This document shows positions 16,451 through 49,615 of a DNA stretch of 64,000 bases, piece by piece. Each line of letters starts with the position of its first letter. The stretch's first letter is position 1. Position numbers and translations under genes: made by a program. The notes beneath the pieces were generated by a model, which saw only the letters and a list, made by a program, of their open reading frames with translations, did not search any database and had not been told where the DNA came from. Origin of the DNA: a virus (taxonomy: Duplodnaviria > Caudoviricetes); the IMG/VR virus record IMGVR_UViG_3300028887_000077, positions 32,001 through 96,000 of that record; one strand, given 5' to 3'.

Positions 16451-17887
16451 ATGGGCCGAAAAAACAAAAACAATAAAATTCGGATTTTATTTTGCGGAGA
16501 AAACGCCCATGACGTTACCGGATCATGCACCTACATCGAAACACCGTATCATAAAATTCTGTTAGAGCTCGGAATGTGGCAGACGTGCGGGAGTAAACTC
16601 GACGCATGGAAAGTTAATTCGAGGAAGTTCGCATTCAAGGCGAAGGACGTCGAGTACATCTTTGTGCCACATTTGCATCTCGACCACGCCGGATTGATCC
16701 CTCTCGCGGTTGCGAGGGGGTTCTCCGGACAGATCGTAATGCCCCACAAATCGAAAGCGATTGCCGAGATTTTGTGGAAAGACAGCACGCACATCATTGA
16801 GTGTGACGCAGAAGAACTATCAAGAAAACTCGGAAGAGAATATCTTCCTTATTATACAGGTACAGATGTTGAAGCATCTTTGAATAAGGTGCGTGAATAT
16901 GCGCCCGGCGAAATTATCGAAGTTGACGAATATCTCAAGTTTCGTTTCGTTCCGTCTGGGCACATCGTCGGAGCGTGTCAGTTAGAGCTTTGGCTCTCTG
17001 ACGGAGTTGTTACGAAAAAGATCCTCTATACGTCGGATCTTGGCAACACACACATCCAAAAGGATTATGTTTATCCGTTTGAGCCGGTGGAGTCGGCTAA
17101 TATTGTTATTGGAGAAAGTACATACAGCGGCGAAGAACGGATCGCAACTGATAAGACGCGCAAGAAGGATATCGAAAAACTCGTATCGTCAATCACTCAA
17201 ACGTGTATCGACGAAAGGGGGCGGGTGCTAATCCCTAGTTTCGCTATCGATAGAACTCAAACGATTATGACAGTGTTATACGACTGCTTTCATAACGACA
17301 AGACATTTAATATTCCTATCTTAATTGATAGTCCGATGGCTCGGTCTGTCTGCGAGGCATATTCAAAAGTTTTGTCCGGAAACGAACTGAGAAAGTGGAA
17401 TAGGGTGAAGTCTTGGGACCGGTTCGTATATGTTGGCGACTATCTCGACAGTAAACATTTCCGCGAAGAAGTACACAGCCCGTGTGTTGTCATAGCGTCG
17501 TCGGGCTTCCTCGTTGGCGGTCGCGCGGTAGCGTGGTGTTCGGAAATGTTGCCGAATAAGAACGACCGTATCATTACGGTTGGGTATGCTCCGCCCGGAT
17601 CGATCGCGTATACGATTAAGAACGAAACGCAGAAGACGATTACGATCGCCGGCAGAAAAAGAAGTAACAAGTGTCAAATTACTAACTTGACCAGCTTTTC
17701 TTCTCATATGCAGCGAGACTCCCTTCTAGACTATTACTCTTCTATTTCTTGCGAGAAGATTTATCTCGTTCATGGAGAGATGGATAAGAAAATAGCGTTC
17801 TCTTCTGAGCTTGAAAATAAAATCTCGGAGAAGAATAAGACCACAAGAGTTGTGTGTGTAAATAAAGGAACAGAAATAATTTTATAA
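16451..17887 (+). CDS. Metallo-beta-lactamase/beta-CASP ribonuclease (YSH1-like)
   Basis: VTGSC, HLHLDH, SGHIVG, YTSDLG, GESTY, IPSFAIDRTQ, FSSH, LVHGE. Confidence 0.9.
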   Translation: MGRKNKNNKIRILFCGENAHDVTGSCTYIETPYHKILLELGMWQTCGSKLDAWKVNSRKFAFKAKDVEYIFVPHLHLDHAGLIPLAVARGFSGQIVMPHKSKAIAEILWKDSTHIIECDAEELSRKLGREYLPYYTGTDVEASLNKVREYAPGEIIEVDEYLKFRFVPSGHIVGACQLELWLSDGVVTKKILYTSDLGNTHIQKDYVYPFEPVESANIVIGESTYSGEERIATDKTRKKDIEKLVSSITQTCIDERGRVLIPSFAIDRTQTIMTVLYDCFHNDKTFNIPILIDSPMARSVCEAYSKVLSGNELRKWNRVKSWDRFVYVGDYLDSKHFREEVHSPCVVIASSGFLVGGRAVAWCSEMLPNKNDRIITVGYAPPGSIAYTIKNETQKTITIAGRKRSNKCQITNLTSFSSHMQRDSLLDYYSSISCEKIYLVHGEMDKKIAFSSELENKISEKNKTTRVVCVNKGTEIIL

Positions 17888-19180: not shown

Positions 19181-19693
19181 ATGAAAGAAAAAAAATATTT
19201 TGTAATTATTGACATGCAAAACGACTTTGTAACCGGCGCGTTAAAGAACGACGACGCTGTCGGCGTTGCAGAAAAGATCGTTTACTATTATCAGCACAAT
19301 CGGTTTGATCGTGTCGTATTTACAATGGACACCCACAATCAAGATTATCTCAATACTCTCGAGGGCAAAAACCTGCCGGTTCCACATTGCATCAAAGGAA
19401 CAAAGGGATGGGAGATTGTTGATGAACTGTTGTTTTTAACGAAGCAATCTACGGTTGTTGAAAAAACAACATTCGGCAGCCTTTCGTGGAAAAAAATTAT
19501 TAAAGATCCGACAGAAATCACTATCTGTGGTCTGGTGTCTGATATTTGTGTTTGTAGCAACGCTTTGATTTTGCGCGCTATGTTCCCAAACACAAAAATT
19601 AAGGTTGTTTCTAATCTGTGTGCGGGATTAACCAAAGAAAAACACAACGCCGCTATGAGCGTAATGGAATCTTGCCAGATTGAGGTAGAATAA
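19181..19693 (+). CDS. pncA: Nicotinamidase (isochorismatase-family cysteine hydrolase)
   Basis: IDMQNDF, DTH, PHC..GT.GW, EKTTFGS, GLVSDICV; NAD-gene context. Confidence 0.8.
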   Translation: MKEKKYFVIIDMQNDFVTGALKNDDAVGVAEKIVYYYQHNRFDRVVFTMDTHNQDYLNTLEGKNLPVPHCIKGTKGWEIVDELLFLTKQSTVVEKTTFGSLSWKKIIKDPTEITICGLVSDICVCSNALILRAMFPNTKIKVVSNLCAGLTKEKHNAAMSVMESCQIEVE

Positions 19694-20556
19694 TGATTAA
19701 AGTAAACGGTCATAAGGTAGAGCTTGAAACGTTCGGTGACAATACTCTGAAGTGCAAGACGATCGAGCCTGGCTGGCTCGTATCGGACAATCTCGGAATC
19801 AAAGTCGGAGACTGTGCAACGCTTACATGGGCATATGATAACGATGCCGAACTATTTGCAGTTTGCTGCCTTGCAAAAGAGCTTCACGAGGAGACTAATA
19901 CCGTATATCTCGAACTGCCCTACATTCCGCATGCAAGGCAAGACAGAAAAGTCAGTGGACGACTCTTTACTTTGAAGGTTTTTGCAGAGATCATCAATTC
20001 TCTCAATTTCAAACGAGTATATGTACTCGATCCACACTCTGATGTCAGTACTGCTCTTATCGATCGTGTTAGGGTCAGGGACTATGAGTTCTTCACTCCG
20101 TCGAAAGTCGATAATCTTGATGCGGTCATGTTTCCAGATACCGGCGCGGCAAAGAAGTACAGCACTACTATGGACGTCGGCAATTTTCCTGTTATTATCG
20201 GCAACAAACATCGTAATGCGGAAGGCCGAGTCGAGTCCTATGAGCTTATGAACTTCCCAGAAGGCGCAAAAACGGTCGCCATTATCGACGATATTTGCTC
20301 TTACGCAGGCACACATGTGGCAGCAGCAAAAGCCCTTAAAGAAAAGGGTGTTGAAAAGGTCATCCTTGTAATTTCACATTGTGAATATAATATTGCAAAA
20401 GGGGCAGCATTTGAATATATAGATGTAGTATATACTACAGATAGTATTTTGGATTTAAATAATACAGAAATTGATCCTGCCGTATTAACAAAATTGCAGG
20501 AAGCAGAAAAAACAGGTAAGCTTGTGATAACACATCATTTTAGACAGGACTACTAA
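19693..20556 (+). CDS. Prs-like pyrophosphokinase (Adps-type)
   Basis: PYIPHARQDR, FTLKVFAEIINSL, DPHSDV, FPDTGA, IIDDICSYAGT. Confidence 0.85.
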   Translation: MIKVNGHKVELETFGDNTLKCKTIEPGWLVSDNLGIKVGDCATLTWAYDNDAELFAVCCLAKELHEETNTVYLELPYIPHARQDRKVSGRLFTLKVFAEIINSLNFKRVYVLDPHSDVSTALIDRVRVRDYEFFTPSKVDNLDAVMFPDTGAAKKYSTTMDVGNFPVIIGNKHRNAEGRVESYELMNFPEGAKTVAIIDDICSYAGTHVAAAKALKEKGVEKVILVISHCEYNIAKGAAFEYIDVVYTTDSILDLNNTEIDPAVLTKLQEAEKTGKLVITHHFRQDY

Positions 20557-20649
20557 GTTATAACTATTATATCGTTTTTGATGACATTTGTAATAGTGGG
20601 ATAATATGACTGCTAAATTATATGAAAGTAAAATTGGAGGTAATTTGGC

Positions 20650-21750
20650 ATGATTAGTTGCTTACTTTGTTTAAATGAATTTAAAAATGAGCAGGTATTA
20701 ACAAAGCATTTACAAAAAGTACACAGTATTTCAAGAAAAGAATATGCAGATCAGTGGCTTAAATTGGACCATATTTGTCCATTTTGTGGACAAGACCGCG
20801 CATTTAAGCACATTAAATATGATAGAACTTGCGGATCAAACTCTTGTATAGCAGAATTAAAACGACAAGTCTATTTAGAACGCTATGGAGTGATAAATCC
20901 GGGCCAGCGACAGATCCAAAGAGAACTAAATAAACATAATTTTGATGACCCAGAGAAATTAAGGGCAAGAAACAACAAAACTAAACAAACCTCGCTAGTA
21001 AAGTATAGTACCGAGAGCCCTAATCAAGCAAAAGAAGTACAAGATAAATCTAAGCAGACATTACTGACTAAATATGGCGTAGCCTTTGCCACACAGCTAC
21101 CTCAATGTAAAACAGCCGGGCATACACAAGGGGCTCAAGCAAAGCGGGCCGAAACTCTAAAACAGAATAACTTAGAAAAATATGGGGCAGCAAATGTTTT
21201 TCAATTAGAGGCAATAAAAATAAAGTCTAAGAAAACTAAATTTAGTCGGTATGGTAACGAGTACTGGACTAATCCAGAAAAAGCTACACAGACTTGTCTA
21301 TTACACTTTGGTGTTCGCAGATTTGCTCAGTCGGAACTTGCCAAAAAACAACATCATAGAGTAATAAGATACAACAATTTAGTATTTGATAGCAAATTAG
21401 AATTGGCTTTTTATTTGTTTTGTGTTGAACATCAACTTAATGTACAGATTAAGCCTGCCAGACTGCCGTTTTTTGTAGATAATAAATTGTACTATTATTT
21501 TCCAGATTTCAGTATTAATAACATTTACTATGAGTGTAAAGGTAAACATTTATTAAAATATTCAGAAACTGGTACAATTATAGGATTATCTAATCCCTAT
21601 ACATCAAAAAAGACAGAGCAAGAGAAATTAACAATACAACATCATTTAGATGCCAAGTATGCTTGTATGCTAGAAAATAACATACAAATTATTACAGGTG
21701 AAGAAGATTTCTATAAAGTTTTAAACAATTCAGAAAATAATAAGAGGTAA
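20650..21750 (+). mobile_element. Free-standing homing endonuclease-like gene (AT-rich)
   Basis: N-terminal C2H2/Cys Zn motifs, repeated T.L.KYG units, C-terminal DS.LE..F...YFPDF...YECKG (PD-(D/E)XK); visibly AT-richer than its neighbours. Confidence 0.75.
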
Positions 21751-21754
21751 AAGT

Positions 21755-23278
21755 ATGTTTAAACTCAATCCGTTACTCGAAAGTGATTACTACAAGCAAG
21801 TCCATTGGGGCCAGTATCCGAAAAACGTGACCAAAGTCGTTTCGTACTGGGTTCCTCGCGGGACGCGTATTCCAGGCTGGAATTACGCGGTCATGTTCGG
21901 TCTTCAGGGGTTCATCAAGGAATTTTTAATCGAGGATTTCAATCAGTATTTCTTTGATCGGAATATCGACGAAGTTCTTGACGAGTACCACCACATCCTC
22001 GACAATACTCTCGGAGAAAAACTCGCCGGGATTGACCGTATCGAAGATCTCTGGCATCTCGGATATCTGCCTATCGAGATCAAGGCGCTTCCGGAGGGAA
22101 CTAAGGTACCCCTTAAGGTTCCTATGTTCGAAATCTCCAACACTCACCCGCGGTTTGCGTGGCTTACGAACGCTCTTGAAAGCGTGATTTCTTGTGAGAT
22201 GTGGCACGCAATGCTTTCCGCAAACGTCGGCGTGGCGTATCGTGAGATTGTTGACAAGTATTACGATGAAACTTGCGACGACGTGATTCCACACAGACGC
22301 GCTCTTGGCGATTTTGCGATGCGCGGGCAGGAGTCGTACAGAAGCGCAACGAAATCTTCTGCCGCATGGCTTCTCTCTTTCGTGAATACCGCAACGGTTC
22401 CGGCCATTCCGTATCTCGAGAAATACTACAACTGCGACTGCGTGAAAGAAGAGGTTGGCTTCGGCGCTCCTTCGACTGAACACAGCGTCATGTGCTCCAA
22501 CTTCGCAGTCGACGGTGACGAGATCACGATGGTTAAGCGTCTACTTACCGAGATCTATCCGCACAACACTTTCACGATGGTATCCGACAGTTACGACTAC
22601 TGGAACCTTGTCGAAAATATTATCCCGCAGTGCAAGAAGGAAATTCTCGAACACGACGGTATCTTCATGGTCCGCGGCGACTCCGGCGATCCGGTTGAGG
22701 TCGTCACTAAGACCGTTTTCAAACTCTGGGACATTTTCGGCGGGACGGTAAACTCGAAGGGCTATAAGGTCCTCGATAAGCACGTGAAAGCGATCTACGG
22801 CGACTCTATCACGATGAGGCGCGCCAAAAATATCTACGAGATTCTGAAAAACGCCGGGTTCGCAGCTTCGAACGTGAGCCTTGGCGTCGGGTCCTTCTCG
22901 ATGCAGTGCTATGAGTCTGCAAGTGAAGACGGTACGGTTAAACTGAGTCCGTTCACCCGCGACACCCTGAACTTTGCGATCAAAGCAACTTACTGCGAGA
23001 CGTCCGATGGCAAGCAGATTCCGATCTTCAAGAATCCGAAAGAAATGGCATTCAAGAAGTCGAACAAAGGTTGTATCGCTGTCTACTACGGCGAGAATAA
23101 GCTCGACGAGGCTGGAAACGTTGTCTTCGCAGATTTTCTTGCGATCGACGGTAGAACGTTCGAAGACGTCAGCAACGATCCGAACAATAAGCTTCAGCCC
23201 GTTTTCAAAGACGGCAAGATGCTCAAGGAGTACAGCCTGAAAGAGATCAGAGACAGACTGTGGGATGGTAGGTTCTGA
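21755..23278 (+). CDS. nadV: NAMPT/NadV-family phosphoribosyltransferase (Namat-like; probably nicotinate-accepting)
   Basis: DYYKQVH, FGLQ, DFAMRG, STEHSVM, VSDSYD, RGDSGDP, IYGDSIT, TRDT..FAIKAT, KKSNKG. Confidence 0.9.
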   Translation: MFKLNPLLESDYYKQVHWGQYPKNVTKVVSYWVPRGTRIPGWNYAVMFGLQGFIKEFLIEDFNQYFFDRNIDEVLDEYHHILDNTLGEKLAGIDRIEDLWHLGYLPIEIKALPEGTKVPLKVPMFEISNTHPRFAWLTNALESVISCEMWHAMLSANVGVAYREIVDKYYDETCDDVIPHRRALGDFAMRGQESYRSATKSSAAWLLSFVNTATVPAIPYLEKYYNCDCVKEEVGFGAPSTEHSVMCSNFAVDGDEITMVKRLLTEIYPHNTFTMVSDSYDYWNLVENIIPQCKKEILEHDGIFMVRGDSGDPVEVVTKTVFKLWDIFGGTVNSKGYKVLDKHVKAIYGDSITMRRAKNIYEILKNAGFAASNVSLGVGSFSMQCYESASEDGTVKLSPFTRDTLNFAIKATYCETSDGKQIPIFKNPKEMAFKKSNKGCIAVYYGENKLDEAGNVVFADFLAIDGRTFEDVSNDPNNKLQPVFKDGKMLKEYSLKEIRDRLWDGRF

Positions 23279-23760
23279 TGGTACAATATTTTAAAGGAGA
23301 TCTTCTTGAAAGCGGCTGTGACGTAATCTGTCATCAGACTAATTGCGTCGGGGCTATGGGCAGTGGAATCGCAAGACAGATTCGCGAGACTTATCCCGAA
23401 ACCTACGAAGCTCTCAGAGAGCGGTTTGAAAACGGTCTTGCAAAACTCGGCGAGTGCGATTTCGTGGAGCTCAAAAGCAAAGACCCTTACGGTCCTGCGA
23501 TCACCAACAATTACGTAGTCAACTGTTACAGCCAGTTTGACTGCTGGCCGCGCGGGGTGCGGCATACCGATTACGACGCGTTCAGAGAGTGCTGCAAGAA
23601 GATCAAAGAACGCTTCGATGGTAAAAACTTCCGGATCGGTTTTCCTTATAAAATCGGTTCCGCTCTCGGGGGCGGAGACTGGGAAGTTATGAAACAAATC
23701 ATTGAAGAAGAATTTAAAGATAACAACTGGAGGGTTGAAGTATGGCAACTAAACTGTTAA
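23278..23760 (+). CDS. Macrodomain protein (ADP-ribose binding/hydrolase)
   Basis: GDLL, HQTNCVGAMGSGIA, FPYKIGSALGGGDW. Confidence 0.88.
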   Translation: MVQYFKGDLLESGCDVICHQTNCVGAMGSGIARQIRETYPETYEALRERFENGLAKLGECDFVELKSKDPYGPAITNNYVVNCYSQFDCWPRGVRHTDYDAFRECCKKIKERFDGKNFRIGFPYKIGSALGGGDWEVMKQIIEEEFKDNNWRVEVWQLNC

Positions 23761-24533
23761 GAGAGGTTTTGGCGTGGCTTGAGGACTACAAGAAGCACGC
23801 AGGATGCAAAGGTGTGGTCCTCGGAATTTCTGGCGGAAAAGACAGCACCACGGTCGCGATGTTGGCGACGAAGGTCTGGGGCAGGGACGTTGTTGGCGTT
23901 CTTATGCCCAACGGCGTTCAGGCTGATATTGAGGATTCTCGTGCGGTTTGTGATTGTCTTGAGCTCAGGAATATTACCGTAAATATTGGTAATGCGTTCG
24001 GCAAGCTCTGCGATGACGTTAATCGCGGTCTTGAATCCTTCGGAGCGGAAGTTACCCCTAAGACCAAAACCAACATTCCGCCTCGTCTCAGGATGACTAC
24101 CCTGTACACCGTCGCGCAGTCTCTCGGCTATCGCGTGATCGGCACCGGCAACGCAAGCGAAGGCTACGTAGGCTGGACTACCAAGTTCGGCGACAGCGCG
24201 TGCGACCTGAATCCGCTCGGCAATCTGACCTGTTCTGAGGTCGTTGCTCTCGGTTCTGAGCTCGCGGAGGAGTTCGGGCTTCCTCTGAAGTACGTTCAGA
24301 AAATCCCGTCTGACGGTCTGTCCGGTCGTTCCGATGAAGATAACTTCGGCTTTACCTACCGGCAGCTTGACGCCTTTATGGTCGATGGCTGCGACGCAAA
24401 GATAGAAGGAGAACCCATCCCAGAGGAGATCAGAGAAAAGATTGGCGCTATGCACGCTATGTCTGCACACAAAAGAGCTCTCCCCAGAACATTTGAACCG
24501 ACCACAGAGTTTATGCGCCGGTTTAAACGATAA
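23742..24533 (+). CDS. nadE: NH3-dependent NAD+ synthetase
   Basis: GISGGKDST, NIPPRLRM, GTGNASE, TKFGD, PSDGL, DEDNFG, HKR. Confidence 0.92.
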   Translation: MATKLLREVLAWLEDYKKHAGCKGVVLGISGGKDSTTVAMLATKVWGRDVVGVLMPNGVQADIEDSRAVCDCLELRNITVNIGNAFGKLCDDVNRGLESFGAEVTPKTKTNIPPRLRMTTLYTVAQSLGYRVIGTGNASEGYVGWTTKFGDSACDLNPLGNLTCSEVVALGSELAEEFGLPLKYVQKIPSDGLSGRSDEDNFGFTYRQLDAFMVDGCDAKIEGEPIPEEIREKIGAMHAMSAHKRALPRTFEPTTEFMRRFKR

Positions 24534-25111: not shown

Positions 25112-26347
25112 ATGTTTGAAATTAAAGGATCTATCGGCTCTGCGAAGTGTTACGCAAAAACTGTCGAGCAGGCAGCAATTGATCAGATCAAGAGAATGTG
25201 CGATTACAAGCTCACGGAAGGAAGCGATATCTGCATCATGCCAGACGTTCACGCTGGTGCGGGGTGTACCATCGGAACCACCATGACCATCACCGATAAG
25301 GTGTGTCCAAATATTGTTGGCGTTGATATCGGATGTGGTATGCTTACTATCCGGCTAGACAAAAGGGCAGACGAGCTTGATCTCGCAAAGATCGATGAAG
25401 CGGCCCATTATATTCCGTCCGGAATGAACGTATGGGAAGAATGCGACAACCGGTTTGATCTGAGCGAGCTTCGTTGTTTGAAGAAGCTACATGATGTAGA
25501 TAGGCTCGAAAGATCTCTTGGAACGCTTGGCGGTGGTAATCACTTTATTGAGGTTGACAAAGACAACAACGGTTTTGCCTACCTGGTTATTCATTCCGGA
25601 AGTCGCAACCTTGGTAAACAAGTCGCTGATATCTATCAGAAGATCGCCATCGGCCTCCATGATGGCAAACAAAAGATCGCTGAGGAGAAACGTGAAGCCA
25701 TCCGCTCTCTCAAAGAGGCCGGAAGAGCATCAGAGATTCAGGCGACCATCAAAGAAATCGATCGAAAATATAAAGATTGTGGCATGGATGTCCCGGAAGA
25801 TATTTGTTGGCTTTACGGTAAGGACATGGAGGACTATCTGCATGATCTGAAGATTTGTCAGGATTTTGCCGTCAAGAATAGAAAGAAAATGGCAAACATT
25901 ATTCTTGAGAAATGTGGGCTTGAAGCAAACACGTTTTTTCATACTATCCATAACTACATATCTCTTGACGAAATGATTCTTCGTAAAGGCGCTATTTCGG
26001 CGCGCGCTGGAGAGGTCGTTTTGATTCCGATCAATATGCGCGACGGATCAGTGATTGCAGTCGGAAAGGGTAACCCAGAGTGGAACTGCTCTGCTCCGCA
26101 CGGAGCCGGTCGGCTAATGTCTCGCGCTGAAGCAAAGAGAACCCTAAATATCGAAGATTATAAAAACTCTATGAATGGTATCTACACTACGTCGGTAAAC
26201 GAAGGGACTATCGACGAGGCCCCGATGGTTTATAAGCCGATTGAGGAAATCGTCGAGGCAATTAAAGACACCGTCGATATCGTCGGTATCATCAAGCCGA
26301 TTTACAACTTTAAGGCTGCGGAAGACGAGCCGATTTGGAGGAAATAA
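25112..26347 (+). CDS. rtcB: RtcB RNA 3'-phosphate/5'-OH ligase
   Basis: MPDVHAG, VGVDIGCG, GTLGGGNHF, HSGSR, HNY, RKGA, HGAGR, DEAPMVYK. Confidence 0.95.
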   Translation: MFEIKGSIGSAKCYAKTVEQAAIDQIKRMCDYKLTEGSDICIMPDVHAGAGCTIGTTMTITDKVCPNIVGVDIGCGMLTIRLDKRADELDLAKIDEAAHYIPSGMNVWEECDNRFDLSELRCLKKLHDVDRLERSLGTLGGGNHFIEVDKDNNGFAYLVIHSGSRNLGKQVADIYQKIAIGLHDGKQKIAEEKREAIRSLKEAGRASEIQATIKEIDRKYKDCGMDVPEDICWLYGKDMEDYLHDLKICQDFAVKNRKKMANIILEKCGLEANTFFHTIHNYISLDEMILRKGAISARAGEVVLIPINMRDGSVIAVGKGNPEWNCSAPHGAGRLMSRAEAKRTLNIEDYKNSMNGIYTTSVNEGTIDEAPMVYKPIEEIVEAIKDTVDIVGIIKPIYNFKAAEDEPIWRK

Positions 26348-37677: not shown

Positions 37678-38201
37678 AAAAGGTAATCTACGGATATAAT
37701 AAGGGCAAAAAGAAACTGGCGAAATTGCCAAGATTATATATCGTTGGGTTGTGGGAGCATTATGGCGTTATGGATCGTCCTCTTTCAAACAAAACCGACG
37801 AGCGTGGAATTCCTCTTGTTTGGGATTATGTCGACTGCAACGGTTATCAGGACAAGTGGATCCTTATTCCGGTTGATTATATTACAACAGGGTGGATTTG
37901 CGCGTGGACTGTTAGCGAAGATAAGGCGAAAAACATTGCGGAAGCTATGAACGCAAGGGACGCCTCATGGTTTGCTTACCACAGGGGTTTTGATGGATAT
38001 GTCGAATATCATAAAGAATCAAACAAGCTGGCCTGTTCTATTAGTTATGACAACCGCACGATTTGTTGTTTTGATATAGATGATACGTTTAACTATGATG
38101 TCGTCAGAAAAGAGTTTGAAGATCGTGTGGACAAACTCATTAAGGATAAAAATATTACCATGGAAAAAACAATGCTAGGCGACGTTCCTAAAAGAGATTA
38201 A
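37674..38201 (+). CDS. Hypothetical protein
   Basis: GAGGTG RBS; 175 aa. Confidence 0.55.
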   Translation: MKKVIYGYNKGKKKLAKLPRLYIVGLWEHYGVMDRPLSNKTDERGIPLVWDYVDCNGYQDKWILIPVDYITTGWICAWTVSEDKAKNIAEAMNARDASWFAYHRGFDGYVEYHKESNKLACSISYDNRTICCFDIDDTFNYDVVRKEFEDRVDKLIKDKNITMEKTMLGDVPKRD

Positions 38202-38232
38202 AAAATGAAATAAACTTTTTATCCAAAACATC

Positions 38233-38261
38233 TTGACAAACACAAATGGACGTGTTATAAT
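38233..38261 (+). promoter_or_regulatory. Sigma-A/70 promoter for tRNA/ncRNA cluster
   Basis: TTGACA-17-TATAAT. Confidence 0.85.
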
Positions 38262-38329
38262 GTCATCGAAAGGTTGAGGCGGCCGATATAAGATGCCAAC
38301 TTAAATTGGCCGCTCCTGTAAAATCTAAT

Positions 38330-38407
38330 GGGCGCTTAGCTCAGATGGTTAGTAGCCCTCGTCTCATAAGCGAATTGTCGCAGGTTCGAGCCCTGCAGCG
38401 CCCACCA
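38330..38407 (+). tRNA. tRNA-CAU (probably Ile2, lysidine type; elongator Met possible)
   Basis: GGGCGCT/AGCGCCC acceptor, CTCATAA loop, ACCA. Confidence 0.88.
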
Positions 38408-38425
38408 TTTTGAAGGAGAATAGCT

Positions 38426-38788
38426 ATGATGGAAATCGGCTGGCTTGCTCCTGACGGCACCATGATCGAATGCGCACTAATGGACCATGTTGCGACAGCC
38501 GAGGAACTTGCTGAAAAAATGGGCTGGAAGGAATACGATGCAGACTTTAACAGGACTCCTCCTGACGACTTCTTGATGGAGCACGGCTTCGTGCATATCA
38601 CGAGGGGTATGTTCTTCGATCACAACTATCATATAATGCACAAGAAACATTACACGCAGGCACAGAAAGACTGGCTCAAGCCGCGCGTGGAAGACAACTG
38701 GAACGACCTCGATAGTTTTTGTCAGATGGATTGGGGTTGGGAGAACGACGAAGACTATCAAAAAGCATTTGACGAGTATAGAAAATAA
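38426..38788 (+). CDS. Hypothetical protein (GWLAPDG family)
   Basis: GWLAPDG...H...A...LMEHGFVHI...TQAQKDWL. Confidence 0.6.
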   Translation: MMEIGWLAPDGTMIECALMDHVATAEELAEKMGWKEYDADFNRTPPDDFLMEHGFVHITRGMFFDHNYHIMHKKHYTQAQKDWLKPRVEDNWNDLDSFCQMDWGWENDEDYQKAFDEYRK

Positions 38789-38801
38789 AACAAATCAATA
38801 T

Positions 38802-38892
38802 GCGGAACGTAGCTCAGCGGCAGAGCTTCGCTGTAAAAAAGGGGTAAAGCGCGAAACATCCTTGGTCGCCGGTTCGAGTCCGGCCGCTCCGC
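38802..38892 (+). ncRNA. tRNA-like RNA with non-canonical anticodon arm
   Basis: Normal D arm (GCTC/GAGC) and T arm (GCCGG TTCGAGT CCGGC), GCGGAACG/CGCTCCGC acceptor, about 40-nt central region, no CCA. Confidence 0.65.
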
Positions 38893-39396
38893 ACTAGGGC
38901 AAAGTTGTGAGCCCAGTCAGAAAATCAACGGGTGTGCACCAACGAGTTGCATGGTCTACTCGGACCCATGCGAGTACATTTCCATCGTCTAATTGGAGTA
39001 GTTAAAATGCCCGACGACAAGGGAATTAGGCAATTTGCAAGCAGATGCCATGCTGTCCCTGGCATTAGCTTGCCTTCGGCGATGGTAACCAGTCCACCAG
39101 ACCGGAGAAGTGTGACACAGACAAAGGGAACATAGAAGTGTGTCGTCCTACAGAGCGGTGATAACACTAGTCCGCTCACTATAATTAAACACGGAGGGTT
39201 CACAAAGGCAATGGAACAAATGAAGGACAAATTCGACTCAATCATTGACTGCCTGAAAAAGGGCATTCAACCGACGATATGCAATCAGCCAACAGTTGAA
39301 AAATCAGAAACTTGCCAATGTCTTGAAGGTTTAAGGTTGATCAAGTAACACAATCGAACGAAGACAAGGGTTTTGTAAAGAGACAGGATCTTTTAT

Positions 39397-39475
39397 GGGC
39401 CCGAAAGGGGTCGACGTGCGTTAAAGCCTACACGGAAGCGTACGGACGTGGGTTCAACTCCCACCGGGTCCACCA
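39397..39475 (+). ncRNA. tmRNA tRNA-like domain only (mini-tmRNA)
   Basis: GGGCCCG/CGGGTCC acceptor with G3.U70, stemless D-loop ending GGTCGAC, 7-bp P2a, GGAC linker, GTGGG TTCAACT CCCAC, ACCA. Confidence 0.8.
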
Positions 39476-39661
39476 GCAAAGGAGATTAGCGTGTTGTTGT
39501 CCAAACTCCTATCCGGCTTGATCGGAAAACAAAATGACAGGTTCAACAACGGTATGCTTAACGAACCGTTCTAGACGAAAGCAGGAACGGGCGAGATTGC
39601 AATCGGGTTGGTAAACCTCGGTCTTGTACGGCGCCGGAAGTTTCCATCAAACGGAGGAACT

Positions 39662-39976
39662 ATGGACGAAGATATTAGAGTTGGTTTCATCGATCCGACA
39701 AAGATTTGTGTCGAAGATGCACCGCTTGACATGTTTGAGGCAAAGTTCCTCGTTTTGTTGTTGTCTCAGAAATTTGATTTTGTTGACATTTCTCCGAAGG
39801 ACTTTTCTTTTAAGAGGCGTTTTGATATTTCCGGATATAAGAAGGCTGTTGACCGCTTATTTGGATCTCGCGCCGCATGGGAGCGTATGCCGTATCCACC
39901 AAATATGTTATTGCTTTCTATTGAAGCGGATGATGGGCTGATGTTTTTGTTGGTTCGCGGCGACGAACCGCAATAA
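39662..39976 (+). CDS. Hypothetical protein
   Basis: GGAGG RBS before ATG 39662. Confidence 0.5.
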   Translation: MDEDIRVGFIDPTKICVEDAPLDMFEAKFLVLLLSQKFDFVDISPKDFSFKRRFDISGYKKAVDRLFGSRAAWERMPYPPNMLLLSIEADDGLMFLLVRGDEPQ

Positions 39977-40001
39977 AACTTTAAAAAGTTTACAAAAACT
40001 C

Positions 40002-40030
40002 TTGACAAATCATATTGCATATGATATAAT
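40002..40030 (+). promoter_or_regulatory. Sigma-A/70 promoter
   Basis: TTGACA-17-TATAAT. Confidence 0.85.
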
Positions 40031-40062
40031 GTATACGAAAACAAAGAAACGGAGCGGAAATT

Positions 40063-40491
40063 ATGCAGTTTTTTGATGAAGAAATGCTTTATTGCCACGA
40101 GACCAATAAGGTGTATAATGCAGAAATCTACAACGACAGATACTGTTGTGCGTGTGGATCCAAGTGGTGCACACCAGTAGAGGTTACGCGTTCTTATCAG
40201 GCAGAGAACATGTGGTACATTAAGAGGGAAGCCGATATTATCATTAAGGCTTTCGATCGCAGATTTCCTGGATATATTAAGGACCATCTATACGATACAT
40301 ATGTGCGTCTTTACGAATCAGATGTATTTATCGACTTCACCGAAGACGCAGATATCGCGGAGATTGAGCGGTTGATCGACGATCTCAAAGGGTGCGGACT
40401 GGAACCATTTTCTATGAAAAAGGTGTACCACAACGGAAAAGCGGTTTTCTGTTTGGACCTTGTTGCTTCGATTTGTGCAGAGGAGATTTAA
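40063..40491 (+). CDS. Hypothetical protein
   Basis: First ORF after the promoter. Confidence 0.55.
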   Translation: MQFFDEEMLYCHETNKVYNAEIYNDRYCCACGSKWCTPVEVTRSYQAENMWYIKREADIIIKAFDRRFPGYIKDHLYDTYVRLYESDVFIDFTEDADIAEIERLIDDLKGCGLEPFSMKKVYHNGKAVFCLDLVASICAEEI

Positions 40492-40493
40492 GT

Positions 40494-40763
40494 ATGTACG
40501 GAGACGATTTTAAATTTGTTGAGCCGCGCGATGTGAAGGTTTTAGGGCAAACAATGAGATCCGAAAAGAAAAACGAGTATGTTGTTGATCTCATCCTTGC
40601 TCTGGCATGGGCCCAATGGACGACCGATCGCACCAATGATGTCATTCTTTGGATGCGTGCGCTGGATATAGCAGAGGTTTGTGGTGTGAAGCTTCAATGG
40701 GTTGAGATGGCGACGTTCCGGACTTTGAATAAGAAAACGAAGAATAAAAGAGGAGTTTTATGA
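40494..40763 (+). CDS. Hypothetical protein
   Basis: GAGGAG RBS. Confidence 0.5.
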   Translation: MYGDDFKFVEPRDVKVLGQTMRSEKKNEYVVDLILALAWAQWTTDRTNDVILWMRALDIAEVCGVKLQWVEMATFRTLNKKTKNKRGVL

Positions 40764-41131
40764 AGAGAAAGAACTGCGTATCAATCGGCGTAAAAGACGC
40801 CTATCAAATGCTTATTTCTGAGCTCAGATATGGATATACTCGCAACAACCATCTGATGCCGTGGGGCGCCTATGAGCACGTTAAGATTTACCTTCCCGTT
40901 ATGGAAACCATCGACCGGGATTGGGCTCTTAAAACCGCGCAGCAGGCGGCCGAAGAGTGTATCAGTGACGAGTTGAGTATCAGGCTTCGCAACGAGGATC
41001 AACACGGAAACAGAAAGATGGCCGTAGAGTTCGTCGGATATCTTGTGGACTGGATTTGCAAACAAGAAAATGGTTATAGATATATGCCGTACAATTACGA
41101 CCATTTCGTGAGCATGATCGGCGAGGACTAA
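40760..41131 (+). CDS. Hypothetical protein
   Basis: RYGYTRNNHLMP motif; coupled. Confidence 0.55.
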   Translation: MKRKNCVSIGVKDAYQMLISELRYGYTRNNHLMPWGAYEHVKIYLPVMETIDRDWALKTAQQAAEECISDELSIRLRNEDQHGNRKMAVEFVGYLVDWICKQENGYRYMPYNYDHFVSMIGED

Positions 41132-48415: not shown

Positions 48416-49615
48416 ATGAAGAAAACCACTACTCGTTATTACCTCGACAACGCTGCCGGAGAGCCGTTACGCAAAGAGGCCATTGAGGCGATGATCCTCT
48501 GCATGGAAAAGTACGGAAACGGCGAATATTCCAACCCTTCTAACATCATGGCTATCTCGGGCAATAGCGCGAGCAGGGCCATGACGGAAGCCAGAGCCTC
48601 GATTGCTTCGTGCATCGGGGCTCTTCCAGAAGAAATTACCTTTACCTCCGGTGGCACAGAATCCAACAACATCGTCATTCACTCCGCGGTTAAACAAGGC
48701 CTCGTTAAAACACACAATCCGCACGTTGTCGTTTCTGCTATCGAACACAAGTCGGTTCTTGAGGCTGTGAAAAATATTACCGCCGAGTACGAGGGGTCTT
48801 ATACGGTCGTTCCGTGCCCAGACGGAGTGGTTGACGTTGATATTCTTGCAAACGCGATCTCCGAAAACACCTGCCTTGTTGCGGTTATGATGGTAAACAA
48901 CGAGGTTGGAACTGTTCAGCCGATTAAAGAGGTCGCAAAGATTTGTTCTGCGAACAAGGTTCCGTTCCTTGTGGACGCTGTACAGGCCGTGGGGCACATG
49001 CCAATCGACGTCAAAGACCTTGGGATTACTTATCTTTCGGCATCCGGGCACAAGTTTGGTGCGCCGGCCGGTACGGGGTTCCTGTGGCACAAGAAAGGCG
49101 CCGCACTGATGCGCTTTTCATATGGCGGTGGTCAGGAGGGCGGATATCGCCCCGGCACCGAGAACCTCGTAGGTATCGTCGGTATGGAAGCCGCGCTTTG
49201 CGCATCGCTCAAAGACTATGCAGACAATTATGAGGATTTGCTTTACACAAACTCCTACATACGTGATAAGGTCAGGGCGAAAATTCCAGACTGTATCATC
49301 AACGGAGAAAACTCTCCGTGTATTCCGACGACGATCAGCTTGTCCTTCAAAGACATCGACGGACCGGGTCTTTCGCTCCGTTTAAACCTTGCCGGATTCA
49401 CCGTTTCCAACGGATCGGCGTGTAACGCGTCCTCTAAGACCGCTTCTCACGTTCTCAAGGCGATGAAGATACCGAAGGATTATATCGGAGGAACAATCAG
49501 GATCTCATTTGCCTCGCACAACATGAAAACGGCAGACCTCGCAAAGGATCTGGTAACAGAACTTACCGAATCCGTGGCTAAGCTACGGTCGTTCAAGACA
49601 AAAGGAGACAAGTAA
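48416..49615 (+). CDS. iscS: Cysteine desulfurase (IscS/NifS)
   Basis: YLDNAA, FTSGGTESNN, EHKSV, VNNEVG, DAVQ, SGHKFG, GGGQE, SNGSAC. Confidence 0.93.
   Translation: MKKTTTRYYLDNAAGEPLRKEAIEAMILCMEKYGNGEYSNPSNIMAISGNSASRAMTEARASIASCIGALPEEITFTSGGTESNNIVIHSAVKQGLVKTHNPHVVVSAIEHKSVLEAVKNITAEYEGSYTVVPCPDGVVDVDILANAISENTCLVAVMMVNNEVGTVQPIKEVAKICSANKVPFLVDAVQAVGHMPIDVKDLGITYLSASGHKFGAPAGTGFLWHKKGAALMRFSYGGGQEGGYRPGTENLVGIVGMEAALCASLKDYADNYEDLLYTNSYIRDKVRAKIPDCIINGENSPCIPTTISLSFKDIDGPGLSLRLNLAGFTVSNGSACNASSKTASHVLKAMKIPKDYIGGTIRISFASHNMKTADLAKDLVTELTESVAKLRSFKTKGDK

What the first reader, a model, noticed from the sequence alone, without database searches (positions are those of the whole stretch)
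39397..39475. A 79-nt tmRNA stripped to its tRNA-like domain (no tag reading frame)
Seen: GGGCCCG AAAGGGGTCGAC GTGCGTT AAAGCCTACACGGA AGCGTAC GGAC GTGGG TTCAACT CCCAC CGGGTCC ACCA. It has the tmRNA TLD hallmarks (G3.U70 and A73 alanine identity, stemless D-loop ending TCGAC, P2a helix, GGAC connector, T arm, encoded CCA), but P2a is capped by a 14-nt loop in place of the usual long pseudoknot/mRNA-like domain. Established: these elements form the AlaRS and SmpB binding surface; MLD-less tmRNAs are known from jakobid mitochondria, and phage tmRNAs are normally full length. Inference: either a SmpB decoy blocking host trans-translation, or a tag-free ribosome rescue RNA that avoids degradation of phage proteins. 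All stems are intact, which argues against random decay.
Basis: partly seen in the sequence, partly recalled or inferred. Interest (0 to 1): 0.82.

Follow-up and report, generated by a model that had tools for sequence, protein, structure and literature searches.

The report
Phage mini-tmRNA lacking its tag template
A 79-base phage gene encodes only the tRNA-like end of the bacterial ribosome-rescue RNA (tmRNA), without the part that templates the degradation tag; it belongs to a widespread, mostly unannotated phage family of which one member was already described, and an RNA of this kind was reported to block the host's rescue-and-tag system.

Summary
Window 39397-39475 (+) matches the Rfam tmRNA model end to end (62.7 bits, cut-off 47), with 306 model positions replaced by a short cap. 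It has no tag frame and no pseudoknots. It is not a one-off deletion. Two pattern scans of viral contigs gave 82 distinct sequences of the same design. Five cultured phages carry it too: mycobacteriophage DS6A and four Streptomyces phages, where it is unannotated. The helices covary strongly. G1-C72, G2-C71, G3.U70 and A73 (alanine identity) are invariant. A purine-rich loop plus mini-hairpin cap is conserved. An independent assembly holds the same short form.

The kind is already known. DS6A is listed as 'TLD only' (Hudson et al. 2014), and a similar RNA was reported to inhibit E. coli tmRNA, perhaps by titrating SmpB (Mao et al. 2009, seen only as cited). So this is a new member of a known kind.

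Most likely mechanism: it is made like a tRNA, charged with alanine, bound by host SmpB, and competes with host tmRNA for SmpB and stalled ribosomes, which suppresses ssrA tagging. Sponge, competitor and true tag-free rescue are not resolved. The breadth of the family, its conserved cap and its presence in tractable Streptomyces phages appear unreported in what I read.

The parts
39397..39403 (+). Acceptor stem, 5' strand (G1, G2, G3 then four variable positions)
   Evidence: Pairs 7/7 with 39465-39471. G1-C72, G2-C71 and G3.U70 are invariant in 51/51 aligned family members and 41/41 of a second set.
39404..39415 (+). Stemless D-loop ending in TCGAC (tmRNA hallmark; the GA of TCGAC faces the GA of GGAC in the Rfam model)
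   Evidence: Rfam alignment; sequence.
39415..39422 (+). P2a helix, 5' strand
   Evidence: 8 contiguous pairs with 39437-39444. Across the family, unconstrained pairs 2-6 are canonical in 209/230 cells, against 101 +/- 7 in shuffles.
39423..39436 (+). 14-nt cap replacing pseudoknots and the mRNA-like domain: purine-rich AAAG, a 2-bp CC/GG mini-hairpin with a 5-nt loop, then A
   Evidence: The motif AA[AG][GA]CC occurs in 25/51 members against 1.8 expected. It resembles the native P2a/P2b internal loop in the Rfam consensus.
39437..39444 (+). P2a helix, 3' strand
39444..39447 (+). GGAC connector
   Evidence: Conserved in 37/41 members of a set in which it was not required by the search.
39448..39464 (+). 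T arm (5-bp stem, 7-nt loop TTCAACT)
   Evidence: The T stem covaries in the second set, e.g. 5 pair types at pair 1.
39465..39471 (+). Acceptor stem, 3' strand (ends U70 C71 C72)
39472..39475 (+). Discriminator A73 and encoded CCA
   Evidence: A73 in 46/46 and CCA encoded in 20/46.
38233..38261 (+). Perfect sigma-70-type promoter (12/12, extended -10) upstream of the tRNA-Met / odd tRNA / small ORF / mini-tmRNA stretch; candidate promoter of the transcript
   Evidence: consensus match only.
39158..39185 (+). Weaker promoter-like site (10/12) 212 nt upstream of the element
   Evidence: consensus match only.

Best explanation
This is a functional gene for a TLD-only (tag-less) tmRNA, and a member of a phage-borne family. 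The proposed steps follow.
(1) It is transcribed with neighbouring tRNA genes and small ORFs and is trimmed like a tRNA. The CCA is encoded in this copy.
(2) Host AlaRS charges it with alanine through G3.U70 and A73.
(3) Host SmpB binds its D-loop/T-loop elbow and the TCGAC/GGAC core. The phage encodes no SmpB.
(4) With EF-Tu it competes with the host's full-length tmRNA for SmpB and for ribosomes stalled on broken mRNAs.
(5) It has no resume codon and no tag frame, so the ssrA degradation tag is not added. The net effect during infection is suppression of host trans-translation tagging.

Basis of each step: the sequence, the structure, the family-wide covariation and the conserved identity elements are shown here. 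From the literature as cited in papers I read: a TLD-only RNA inhibits tmRNA in E. coli, and a TLD fragment with SmpB works on ribosomes in vitro. Inferred: charging, SmpB binding and ribosome entry for this RNA, and the benefit to the phage.
For: Identity: RF00023 at 62.7 bits over model positions 1-374.

Family: 52 of 92 viral loci from scan 1 (45 distinct sequences) and 54 of 120 from scan 2 (39-41 distinct) have the full mini design, giving 82 distinct sequences in the union. Five cultured phages have it as well.

Covariation: 99.1% of 765 cells are paired against 77.1% in shuffles, and the covariation score is 0.537 against 0.098 (0/500 shuffles reach it; slid partners give 0.04-0.09). 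P2a pairs 2-6 are canonical in 209/230 cells against 101 +/- 7.

Selection on charging: G1-C72, G2-C71 and G3.U70 in 51/51 and 41/41, and A73 in 46/46 and 54/54 loci, while acceptor positions 4-7 vary (18 distinct strands).

SmpB core: GGAC is kept in 37/41 where the search did not require it.

tRNA-like expression context: tRNA genes lie within 300 bp on the same strand in 10/45 loci. In 4/4 Streptomyces phages examined the element sits inside a tRNA array.

Dependence on the host: no SmpB in the window's genome or in 5/5 cultured carriers. No full-length tmRNA in the window's genome, G002, DS6A or 4 Streptomyces phages.

Against: There is no expression, charging or binding data for this RNA, and the host is unknown.

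The cited experiment found inhibition regardless of chargeability. A plain SmpB sponge would therefore suffice, and the 'charged competitor on the ribosome' step rests only on the invariance of the alanine identity set.

0 of 49 scanned DNA-polymerase relatives carry a mini form, so it is dispensable for this phage lineage.

The phage encodes no ArfB/RF-1-domain protein and no peptidyl-tRNA hydrolase, so the fate of a peptidyl-mini-tmRNA on the ribosome is unexplained.

The single-sequence fold is not unusually stable.

The first scan's pattern fixed TCGAC, GGACG and most of the T arm, so conservation of those parts in set 1 is circular. Only set 2 and the cultured phages test them.

I could not read Mao et al. 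2009 itself.
Confidence: 0.5

Rival explanations
1. Pure SmpB sponge. The RNA only sequesters host SmpB, which also destabilises host tmRNA. Charging and ribosome entry are irrelevant.
For: [quoted passage not shown] No phage SmpB.
Against: G3.U70, G1-C72, G2-C71 and A73 are invariant in 51/51 and 41/41 sequences while the rest of the acceptor stem varies freely. A sponge would not need the alanine identity set or an encoded CCA (20/46).
Confidence: 0.2
2. Productive tag-free (or alanine-only) ribosome rescue. Ala-mini-tmRNA with SmpB takes over the nascent chain and frees the broken mRNA. The ribosome is then released by host back-up factors or by drop-off, so unfinished proteins escape the ssrA degron and ribosomes are recycled for phage translation.
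For: The conserved alanine identity set. TLD fragment plus SmpB is active on ribosomes without template (PMC3929946 passages). CDS-less tmRNAs persist with SmpB in mitochondria and are thought to help with incomplete mRNAs (PMC11915505 passages). Carrier phages hold tRNA arrays and RNA-repair genes (RtcB in the window; RtcB-like in DS6A; RNA ligase near the BRock element).
Against: There is no resume codon or conserved stop: GCN-to-stop frames occur in only 12/51, at scattered positions. No release factor or hydrolase is encoded. The one reported phenotype is inhibition. Reviews doubt that the equally reduced jakobid form can carry out bacterial-type trans-translation (PMC3985003 passage).
Confidence: 0.2
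3. Another tRNA-like role unrelated to trans-translation, for example an RNase P/Z processing signal within a polycistronic transcript, or a decoy for a host nuclease that attacks tRNA-like RNAs.
For: It sits between small ORFs, with a ribosome-binding site and a GTG 3-16 nt downstream, and among tRNA genes. The phage encodes RtcB and a beta-CASP RNase.
Against: A processing signal would not need the tmRNA-specific TCGAC/GGAC core, the G3.U70/A73 set or the conserved cap.
Confidence: 0.08
4. Non-functional relic: a decaying tmRNA, an attP fragment, or an assembly collapse.
For: Many non-mini hits of scan 1 are 3' tmRNA fragments of the attP kind. The genome has one tyrosine recombinase. One bacterial MAG copy (L163) looks like an internal deletion of a host-type tmRNA.
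Against: 88 distinct sequences share the design, with compensatory changes. Both the 5' and 3' halves are present. The recombinase lies about 62 kb away. An independent contig from another study carries the identical 79 nt while its flanks differ at 9 places.
Confidence: 0.02

Closest known systems
TLD-only tmRNA of mycobacteriophage DS6A (tmRNA Website tmID 11587; JN698994 28478-28560)
   Same: Phage-encoded and about 80 nt (83 vs 79). Same order of parts: 7-bp G3.U70 acceptor stem, stemless D-loop ending TCGAC, P2a, purine-rich loop plus small CCG/CGG hairpin cap, T arm, A73. It scores 59.4 bits over the full length of a model built without it. Unannotated in GenBank. The carrier encodes no SmpB and has an RtcB-like ligase.
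   Different: DS6A has GGCAC in place of GGAC and a different T stem. It lacks an encoded CCA (tail ACTA) and falls below the Rfam cut-off (43.2 bits). It is a 60-kb temperate actinophage, against a 150-kb phage of unknown host. The two are not close in sequence: blastn with the DS6A element finds only DS6A records.
Unannotated mini-tmRNAs of Streptomyces phages BRock, LuckySocke, Shaeky and pSt2308 (found here)
   Same: 81-82 nt. RF00023 57.1-64.5 bits over model 1-374. The cap AAAGCC-loop-GGA is like the window's. They lie inside tRNA arrays on the tRNA strand.
   Different: Different hosts and genomes. CCA is not encoded. BRock has TTGAC instead of TCGAC.
Standard bacterial tmRNA (Rfam RF00023)
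   Same: The tRNA-like domain: acceptor stem with G3.U70, A73, D-loop TCGAC, P2a, GGAC, T arm, CCA.
   Different: It lacks the mRNA-like domain, the resume codon, the tag frame and pseudoknots PK1-PK4. 306 model positions are replaced by a short cap.
Mitochondrial tmRNA of jakobids and oomycetes (Rfam RF02544) and CDS-less plastid tmRNAs
   Same: These are natural tmRNAs without a tag reading frame, thought to act with SmpB (PMC11915505 and PMC3985003 passages).
   Different: RF02544 gives no match in this genome even at E <= 10. They are organellar, usually permuted, and have a dedicated imported SmpB.
Engineered TLD fragments used in SmpB co-crystals and in vitro trans-translation assays
   Same: The same design: 5' and 3' ends of tmRNA joined by a small loop on P2a (T. 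thermophilus 25 + 34 nt with UUCG). They bind SmpB, and with SmpB they support template-free polyalanine synthesis (PMC3929946 passages).
   Different: They are man-made and lack the conserved purine-rich internal loop and mini-hairpin of the natural family.

Membership tests
tmRNA (Rfam RF00023, standard one-piece) | Score at or above the curated gathering threshold | tested here: met
   62.7 bits against 47; model positions 1-374.
tmRNA (Rfam RF00023, standard one-piece) | tRNA-like domain: 7-bp acceptor stem with G3.U70, A73, stemless D-loop ending UCGAC, GGAC connector, T arm | tested here: met
tmRNA (Rfam RF00023, standard one-piece) | mRNA-like domain with resume codon, tag reading frame and stop codon | tested here: not met
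   14-nt cap only; no GCN-started frame ending in a stop in the window's RNA; such frames in only 12/51 family members, at scattered positions.
tmRNA (Rfam RF00023, standard one-piece) | Pseudoknots PK1-PK4 | tested here: not met
   306 model positions replaced by 12 nt.
tmRNA (Rfam RF00023, standard one-piece) | Alanylation by AlaRS; binding of SmpB and EF-Tu | not testable with these tools
   Only the identity and binding nucleotides can be seen.
TLD-only (CDS-less) phage tmRNA, type DS6A | [quoted passage not shown] | tested here: met
   definition from PMC4131195.
TLD-only (CDS-less) phage tmRNA, type DS6A | Same architecture and homology with the DS6A element | tested here: met
   With model R1, whose 12-sequence seed includes the window's element but not DS6A, DS6A scores 59.4 bits and the window 79.4. 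Shared purine-rich loop plus CC(G)/(C)GG hairpin cap.
TLD-only (CDS-less) phage tmRNA, type DS6A | Inhibits host tmRNA function when expressed | not testable with these tools
   Reported for a similar RNA; the primary paper is not held.
Mitochondrial tmRNA (Rfam RF02544) | Match to the family model | tested here: not met
   No match at E <= 10; 30 candidates scored.
Permuted two-piece tmRNA (RF04321, RF01849-51) | Acceptor piece upstream of the coding piece; match to a permuted model | tested here: not met
   No such match in the window at gathering score, nor at E <= 1 in 38000-41000. The same models do find permuted tmRNAs in two control phages.
Ordinary tRNA (RF00005) | Cloverleaf with D stem and anticodon arm | tested here: not met
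   ARAGORN makes no call here. Within the tRNA clan the tmRNA model wins. There is no D stem or anticodon arm.

The most novel reading that the evidence does not exclude
These RNAs are not mere SmpB sponges but the smallest working rescue device: a charge-dependent 'zero-codon' tmRNA. After donating its alanine, the TLD-SmpB complex leaves a ribosome that does one of two things. It adds further template-free alanines, giving an Ala tail as seen in vitro with TLD fragments. Or it terminates on the UAA/UAG/UGA triplet found at the P2a/cap junction in 24 of 51 members (7.7 expected). On this reading, phages would rewrite the outcome of host ribosome rescue rather than simply block it.
Probability: 0.08. 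Interest if true: 0.85.

Novelty: new member of a known kind. Interest (0 to 1): 0.55.

Why it matters
What tag-less tmRNAs do is an open question in mitochondria, plastids and one phage. This work shows that the phage form is not a curiosity of DS6A. It is a conserved family with at least 88 distinct sequences, invariant alanine identity elements and a conserved cap. It is present and unannotated in cultured, genetically tractable Streptomyces phages, which makes the question testable by ordinary phage genetics and biochemistry. If the RNA blocks or redirects trans-translation, it is a small-RNA counter-measure against a host quality-control pathway, and a natural inhibitor of a pathway that is being pursued as an antibacterial target. 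On the practical side, ARAGORN misses these genes or miscalls them as tRNA, and phage annotations leave them blank.

Tried and rejected
- ARAGORN does not detect the element.
- Megablast and blastn of the locus against cultured phages found no relative of the window's own copy. The only hits were T-arm matches, which turned out to be full permuted tmRNAs.
- The neighbouring 142-aa protein gave no related loci. The 399-aa protein gave one relative, whose record has no tmRNA hit.
- RF02544 (mt-tmRNA): no match.
- Sequencing runs: no RNA holder listed, so expression could not be examined.
- Mao et al. 2009 is not held.
- MAFFT alignments mis-register the 5' ends and the P2a strands. I therefore used junction-anchored counts and a model-based alignment covering only 3 P2a pairs.
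- blastn with family members L039, L053, L010 and L054 found no further clear minis in cultured phages. Microbacterium phage Franklin22 has a 91-nt G3.U70/CCA element without the TCGAC/GGAC core (42 bits). Mycobacterium phage MrMagoo is unconvincing (31.5 bits). Both are left open.
- A hidden short tag frame: rejected.
- The junction stop triplet as a functional stop: enrichment is real against shuffles, but it is confounded with the conserved U-purine-rich / G-A-N loop motif, which from memory resembles the UAA/GAN internal-loop motif. It is kept only as the novel case.
- attP relic: the only recombinase lies about 62 kb away.

Full report
**1. The observation**

The Rfam tmRNA model RF00023 matches these coordinates at 62.7 bits (gathering score 47, E 4e-22). 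The match covers both ends of the 374-position model and bridges 306 positions with 12 nt (repeated at a permissive threshold, where nothing else related to tmRNA appears in 38000-41000).

The parts are:
- acceptor 5' strand, 39397-39403
- stemless D-loop ending TCGAC, 39404-39415
- P2a, 39415-39422 paired with 39437-39444 (8 pairs)
- a 14-nt cap, 39423-39436
- GGAC, 39444-39447
- T arm, 39448-39464
- acceptor 3' strand, 39465-39471
- ACCA, 39472-39475

ARAGORN lists 7 tRNA genes in the window but not this element. The minimum-free-energy fold reproduces the proposed structure. Its energy is unremarkable (z -1.39; 19 of 200 shuffles fold as well), so single-sequence thermodynamics proves nothing here.

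**2. The setting**

The window is bases 32001-96000 of a 150,027-bp viral record with direct terminal repeats, estimated complete. The element is the only tmRNA match above cut-off in that record.

The genome encodes:
- replication genes, an NAD-salvage cluster and RtcB
- a beta-CASP RNase and a class-V aminotransferase
- one tyrosine recombinase about 62 kb from the element

It encodes no SmpB, no RF-1/ArfB-domain protein and no peptidyl-tRNA hydrolase. Flanking ORFs have no family matches. A perfect 12/12 sigma-70-type promoter lies at 38233-38261, upstream of the tRNA-Met / odd tRNA / small-ORF / element stretch. A 10/12 site lies at 39158-39185 (consensus matches only).

**3. Not a unique deletion or an assembly artefact**

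No close relative of the phage was found:
- The cultured-phage collection has no near match.
- A neighbouring 142-aa protein has no relatives.
- A 399-aa protein has one, at 41% identity, whose record has no tmRNA hit.

The DNA polymerase finds 68 related loci at 51-66% identity. I sent 50 of them, and 49 records were searched. One has a tmRNA hit at E <= 1e-9: a full-length copy at bases 254-594 of a linear contig, probably host flank. None has a mini form. The element is therefore sporadic in this lineage, as phage tRNA genes often are, and the relatives do not carry a full-length gene in its place.

Contigs of four runs were laid on 38200-40200. Run X1 may be the source of this DNA. Run X2 comes from another study. 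It holds a 382-nt contig across 39163-39543 with 8 substitutions and 1 indel, all outside 39397-39475. The short form was thus assembled independently. Zero changes in 79 nt, against 9 in the flanks, is in the direction of constraint but is not significant by itself.

**4. A family**

*Scan 1.* This scan of viral contigs required TCGAC, an 18-48 nt gap, GGACG and a T-arm pattern. It gave 92 stretches. Of these, 52 loci (45 distinct sequences) have a 7/7 acceptor stem at the right distance. The rest are mostly 3' tmRNA fragments of the attP kind, or tRNAs.

With the window's copy added, 46 distinct sequences give these results:
- GGG/UCC and A73 in 46/46, although the scan did not require them.
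- 18 distinct acceptor strands.
- CCA encoded in 20/46.
- Lengths of 69-94 nt.
- P2a, anchored only on the invariant junctions, averages 6.0 contiguous pairs, against 1.62 in shuffles.
- P2a's unconstrained pairs 2-6 are canonical in 209 of 230 cells. Column shuffles give 101 +/- 7 (maximum 129 of 1000), and slid partners give 37-56%.

*The covariance model.* I built a covariance model (R1) from 12 of these sequences. It separates the loci into tiers:
- 58 hits at 53.9-79.4 bits
- six intermediates at 42-50 bits
- fragments at 38.7 bits or below

On the model-based alignment of 51 distinct sequences, the pair-count tool gives:
- 99.1% of 765 cells paired, against 77.1% in shuffles
- 156 cells changed on both sides, against 43.6
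- a covariation score of 0.537, against 0.098 (0 of 500 shuffles reach it; slid partners give 0.04-0.09)
- G1-C72, G2-C71 and G3.U70 in 51/51

This alignment is fitted to the model and covers only 3 P2a pairs. The anchored counts cover the rest.

*Scan 2.* This scan required only the 5' D-loop (GGTTTCGAC) and the AAAGCC cap motif, with nothing on the 3' side. Of the 120 loci, 54 (41 distinct with tail, 39 to the discriminator) have the full design. The 15 of the other 66 that I inspected look like unrelated chance matches, and 4 of the 66 have a GGG at the right distance upstream.

In this second set:
- GGAC precedes the T stem in 37/41.
- P2a pairs 2-8 are canonical in 34-41 of 41, each with five or more standard pair types.
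- The T stem shows up to 5 pair types per position.
- G1-C72, G2-C71 and G3.U70 hold in 41/41, and A73 in 54/54 loci.

The union of the two scans is 82 distinct viral-contig sequences.

*Bacterial genomes.* A comparable scan returned 120 rows at its limit, of which the script parsed 119 matches. Nearly all are 3' ends of ordinary tmRNAs. About 6 look like minis (L111, L130, L163, L169, L184, L206).

**5. The cap**

After 5-8 P2a pairs, most members have three features in order: a purine-rich 5' stretch, a 2-4-bp hairpin with a 4-6-nt loop, and one or two purines on the 3' side. The window's purine stretch is AAAG, its hairpin pairs CC with GG, and a single A follows. The motif AA[AG][GA]CC occurs in 25 of 51, against 1.8 expected (maximum 7 of 500 shuffles).

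The Rfam consensus of native tmRNA has an asymmetric internal loop between P2a and P2b: 'GAa' on the 5' side and 1 nt on the 3' side. The cap therefore looks like that loop plus a stub of P2b closed by a small loop. This is a resemblance, not a demonstrated homology.

A stop triplet sits at the P2a/cap junction in 24 of 51 (7.7 expected, maximum 15). It is confounded with the loop motif.

There is no conserved tag frame. GCN-started frames that reach a stop occur in 12 of 51, at scattered positions, and not in the window's copy.

**6. Prior art**

I read passages only of each paper named below.
- Hudson, Lau and Williams 2014 (PMC4131195) list 'Mycobacterium phage DS6A (TLD only)'. [quoted passage not shown]
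- The 2025 tmRNA database paper (PMC11915505) names CDS-less forms in mitochondria and in two plastids. [quoted passage not shown] That study searched RefSeq viruses.
- Mao et al. 2009 is not held.
- Searches for other descriptions found nothing on tag-less phage tmRNAs. The methylophage paper concerns full two-piece tmRNAs.
- I did not see the supplementary tables of the database paper, which may list more phage entries.

**7. Cultured carriers**

The DS6A element lies at JN698994 28478-28560. It is 83 nt, scores 43.2 bits with RF00023 (below cut-off) and is unannotated. It has the same design and a cap of the same type as the window's. It scores 59.4 bits with my model, which was built without it.

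blastn with family member L017 found six Streptomyces phages. Four were examined: LuckySocke, BRock, Shaeky and pSt2308. Each has an 81-82-nt RF00023 hit at 57.1-64.5 bits, in an unannotated gap inside a tRNA array on the tRNA strand. GiJojo and Alone3 were seen by blastn only.

None of the five cultured carriers encodes SmpB. The four Streptomyces phages have no full-length tmRNA, and DS6A has only the mini hit.

Among the 45 viral-contig loci of scan 1, 10 have tRNA genes within 300 bp, always on the same strand. In an eleventh, ARAGORN miscalls the mini itself as tRNA-Arg.

**8. Mechanism**

*Shown here:* a conserved, covarying RNA with the alanine identity set, the SmpB-binding core, a T arm and often an encoded CCA. 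It sits in tRNA-like genomic contexts, in phages that lack SmpB and lack a full tmRNA.

*From the literature (passages):*
- SmpB binds the TLD, protects it and enhances its charging.
- TLD plus SmpB mimics a whole tRNA.
- The crystallised TLD (25 + 34 nt joined by UUCG) has the same design as these RNAs.
- A TLD-only RNA inhibits tmRNA in vivo.

*Inference:* the RNA is charged, binds host SmpB and competes with host tmRNA for SmpB and for stalled ribosomes, so ssrA tagging falls. The invariance of G3.U70 and A73, while the rest of the acceptor stem varies, argues that charging is under selection. That favours action on the ribosome over a pure sponge, but it is the only evidence on this point.

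What happens to a peptidyl-mini-tmRNA on the ribosome is unknown. Possibilities are release by host ArfA/RF2 or ArfB, drop-off, or further alanine additions. That rescue rather than tagging is what some phages need from tmRNA is my recollection of older lambda-immP22 work. It comes from no call.

**9. Verdict**

The kind is known (DS6A), so this is a new member of a known kind.

Three things appear not to be in the literature I could search:
- the size and spread of the family
- its invariant identity set and conserved cap
- its unannotated presence in cultured Streptomyces phages

These raise the interest above that of a routine annotation.

Noticed in passing
window 38802-38894 (+): An odd 93-nt tRNA-like gene. 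ARAGORN calls it tRNA-Phe with anticodon AAA. Rfam tRNA gives only 37 bits over 90 nt. It may be a long-arm or intron-bearing tRNA.
   Followed up: no
window 38233-38261 and 40002-40030 (+): Two perfect 12/12 sigma-70 consensus promoters with extended -10 TG, which suggests strong host-RNAP-driven transcription of this small-gene/tRNA region.
   Followed up: no
window 39478-39574 (+): Directly after the CCA end there is an AAAGGAG ribosome-binding site, then a GTG at 39491 opening a 27-codon frame that ends at the TAG at 39572-39574 (read). The frame is too short for the ORF list.
   Followed up: no
window 16451-17887, 19693-24533, 25112-26347, 48416-49615 (+): An RNA and NAD toolkit: beta-CASP/RMMBL RNase; PRPP synthetase, NAMPT and NAD synthetase with a homing endonuclease between them; RtcB ligase; a class-V aminotransferase (cysteine-desulfurase-like).
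   Followed up: partly
L296 1427-1827 (ON615601, Synechococcus phage BUCT-ZZ01) and L297 1476-1777 (ON331942, Stenotrophomonas phage vB_Sm_QDWS359): Full permuted two-piece tmRNA genes (RF04321 at 111.9 and 108.7 bits) lie under features annotated as hypothetical proteins.
   Followed up: partly
L300 1496-1576, L301 1492-1572, L302 1491-1572, L303 1501-1581: Unannotated mini-tmRNAs in Streptomyces phages LuckySocke, BRock, Shaeky and pSt2308, inside tRNA arrays. GiJojo and Alone3 probably carry one too (blastn only).
   Followed up: yes
L219 3104-3421 (-), provirus record G005: A ROOL RNA (182 bits, cut off at the locus end) lies next to a 12-gene tRNA array and a full-length 421-nt tmRNA.
   Followed up: no
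L039 272-354: ARAGORN reads a 70-nt mini-tmRNA as tRNA-Arg (tcg). Such miscalls may hide members of the family in annotations.
   Followed up: no
L163 (Achromobacter MAG contig): A mini form whose 5' and 3' parts look like the host-type betaproteobacterial tmRNA (GCGAAAC after P2a). It may be an independent internal deletion or an assembly collapse, and not a member of the phage family.
   Followed up: no
L313 540-630 (NC_073427, Microbacterium phage Franklin22): A 91-nt element between tRNA-Asn and tRNA-Gln, with a 7-bp G3.U70 acceptor stem, a T arm and CCA but no TCGAC/GGAC core (42 bits with R1). It may be a divergent relative.
   Followed up: partly
family-wide; window 39421-39423: A UAA, UAG or UGA triplet sits at the P2a/cap junction in 24 of 51 members, against 7.7 expected. 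It is confounded with the conserved loop motif.
   Followed up: partly
L019 / G004 320046-320127 and L007 / G003 166622-166685: Jumbo-phage records (331 kb and 296 kb) have short sub-threshold tmRNA-model hits (33.9 and 31.8 bits; 37-38 bits with R1) that do not fit the mini design cleanly.
   Followed up: no
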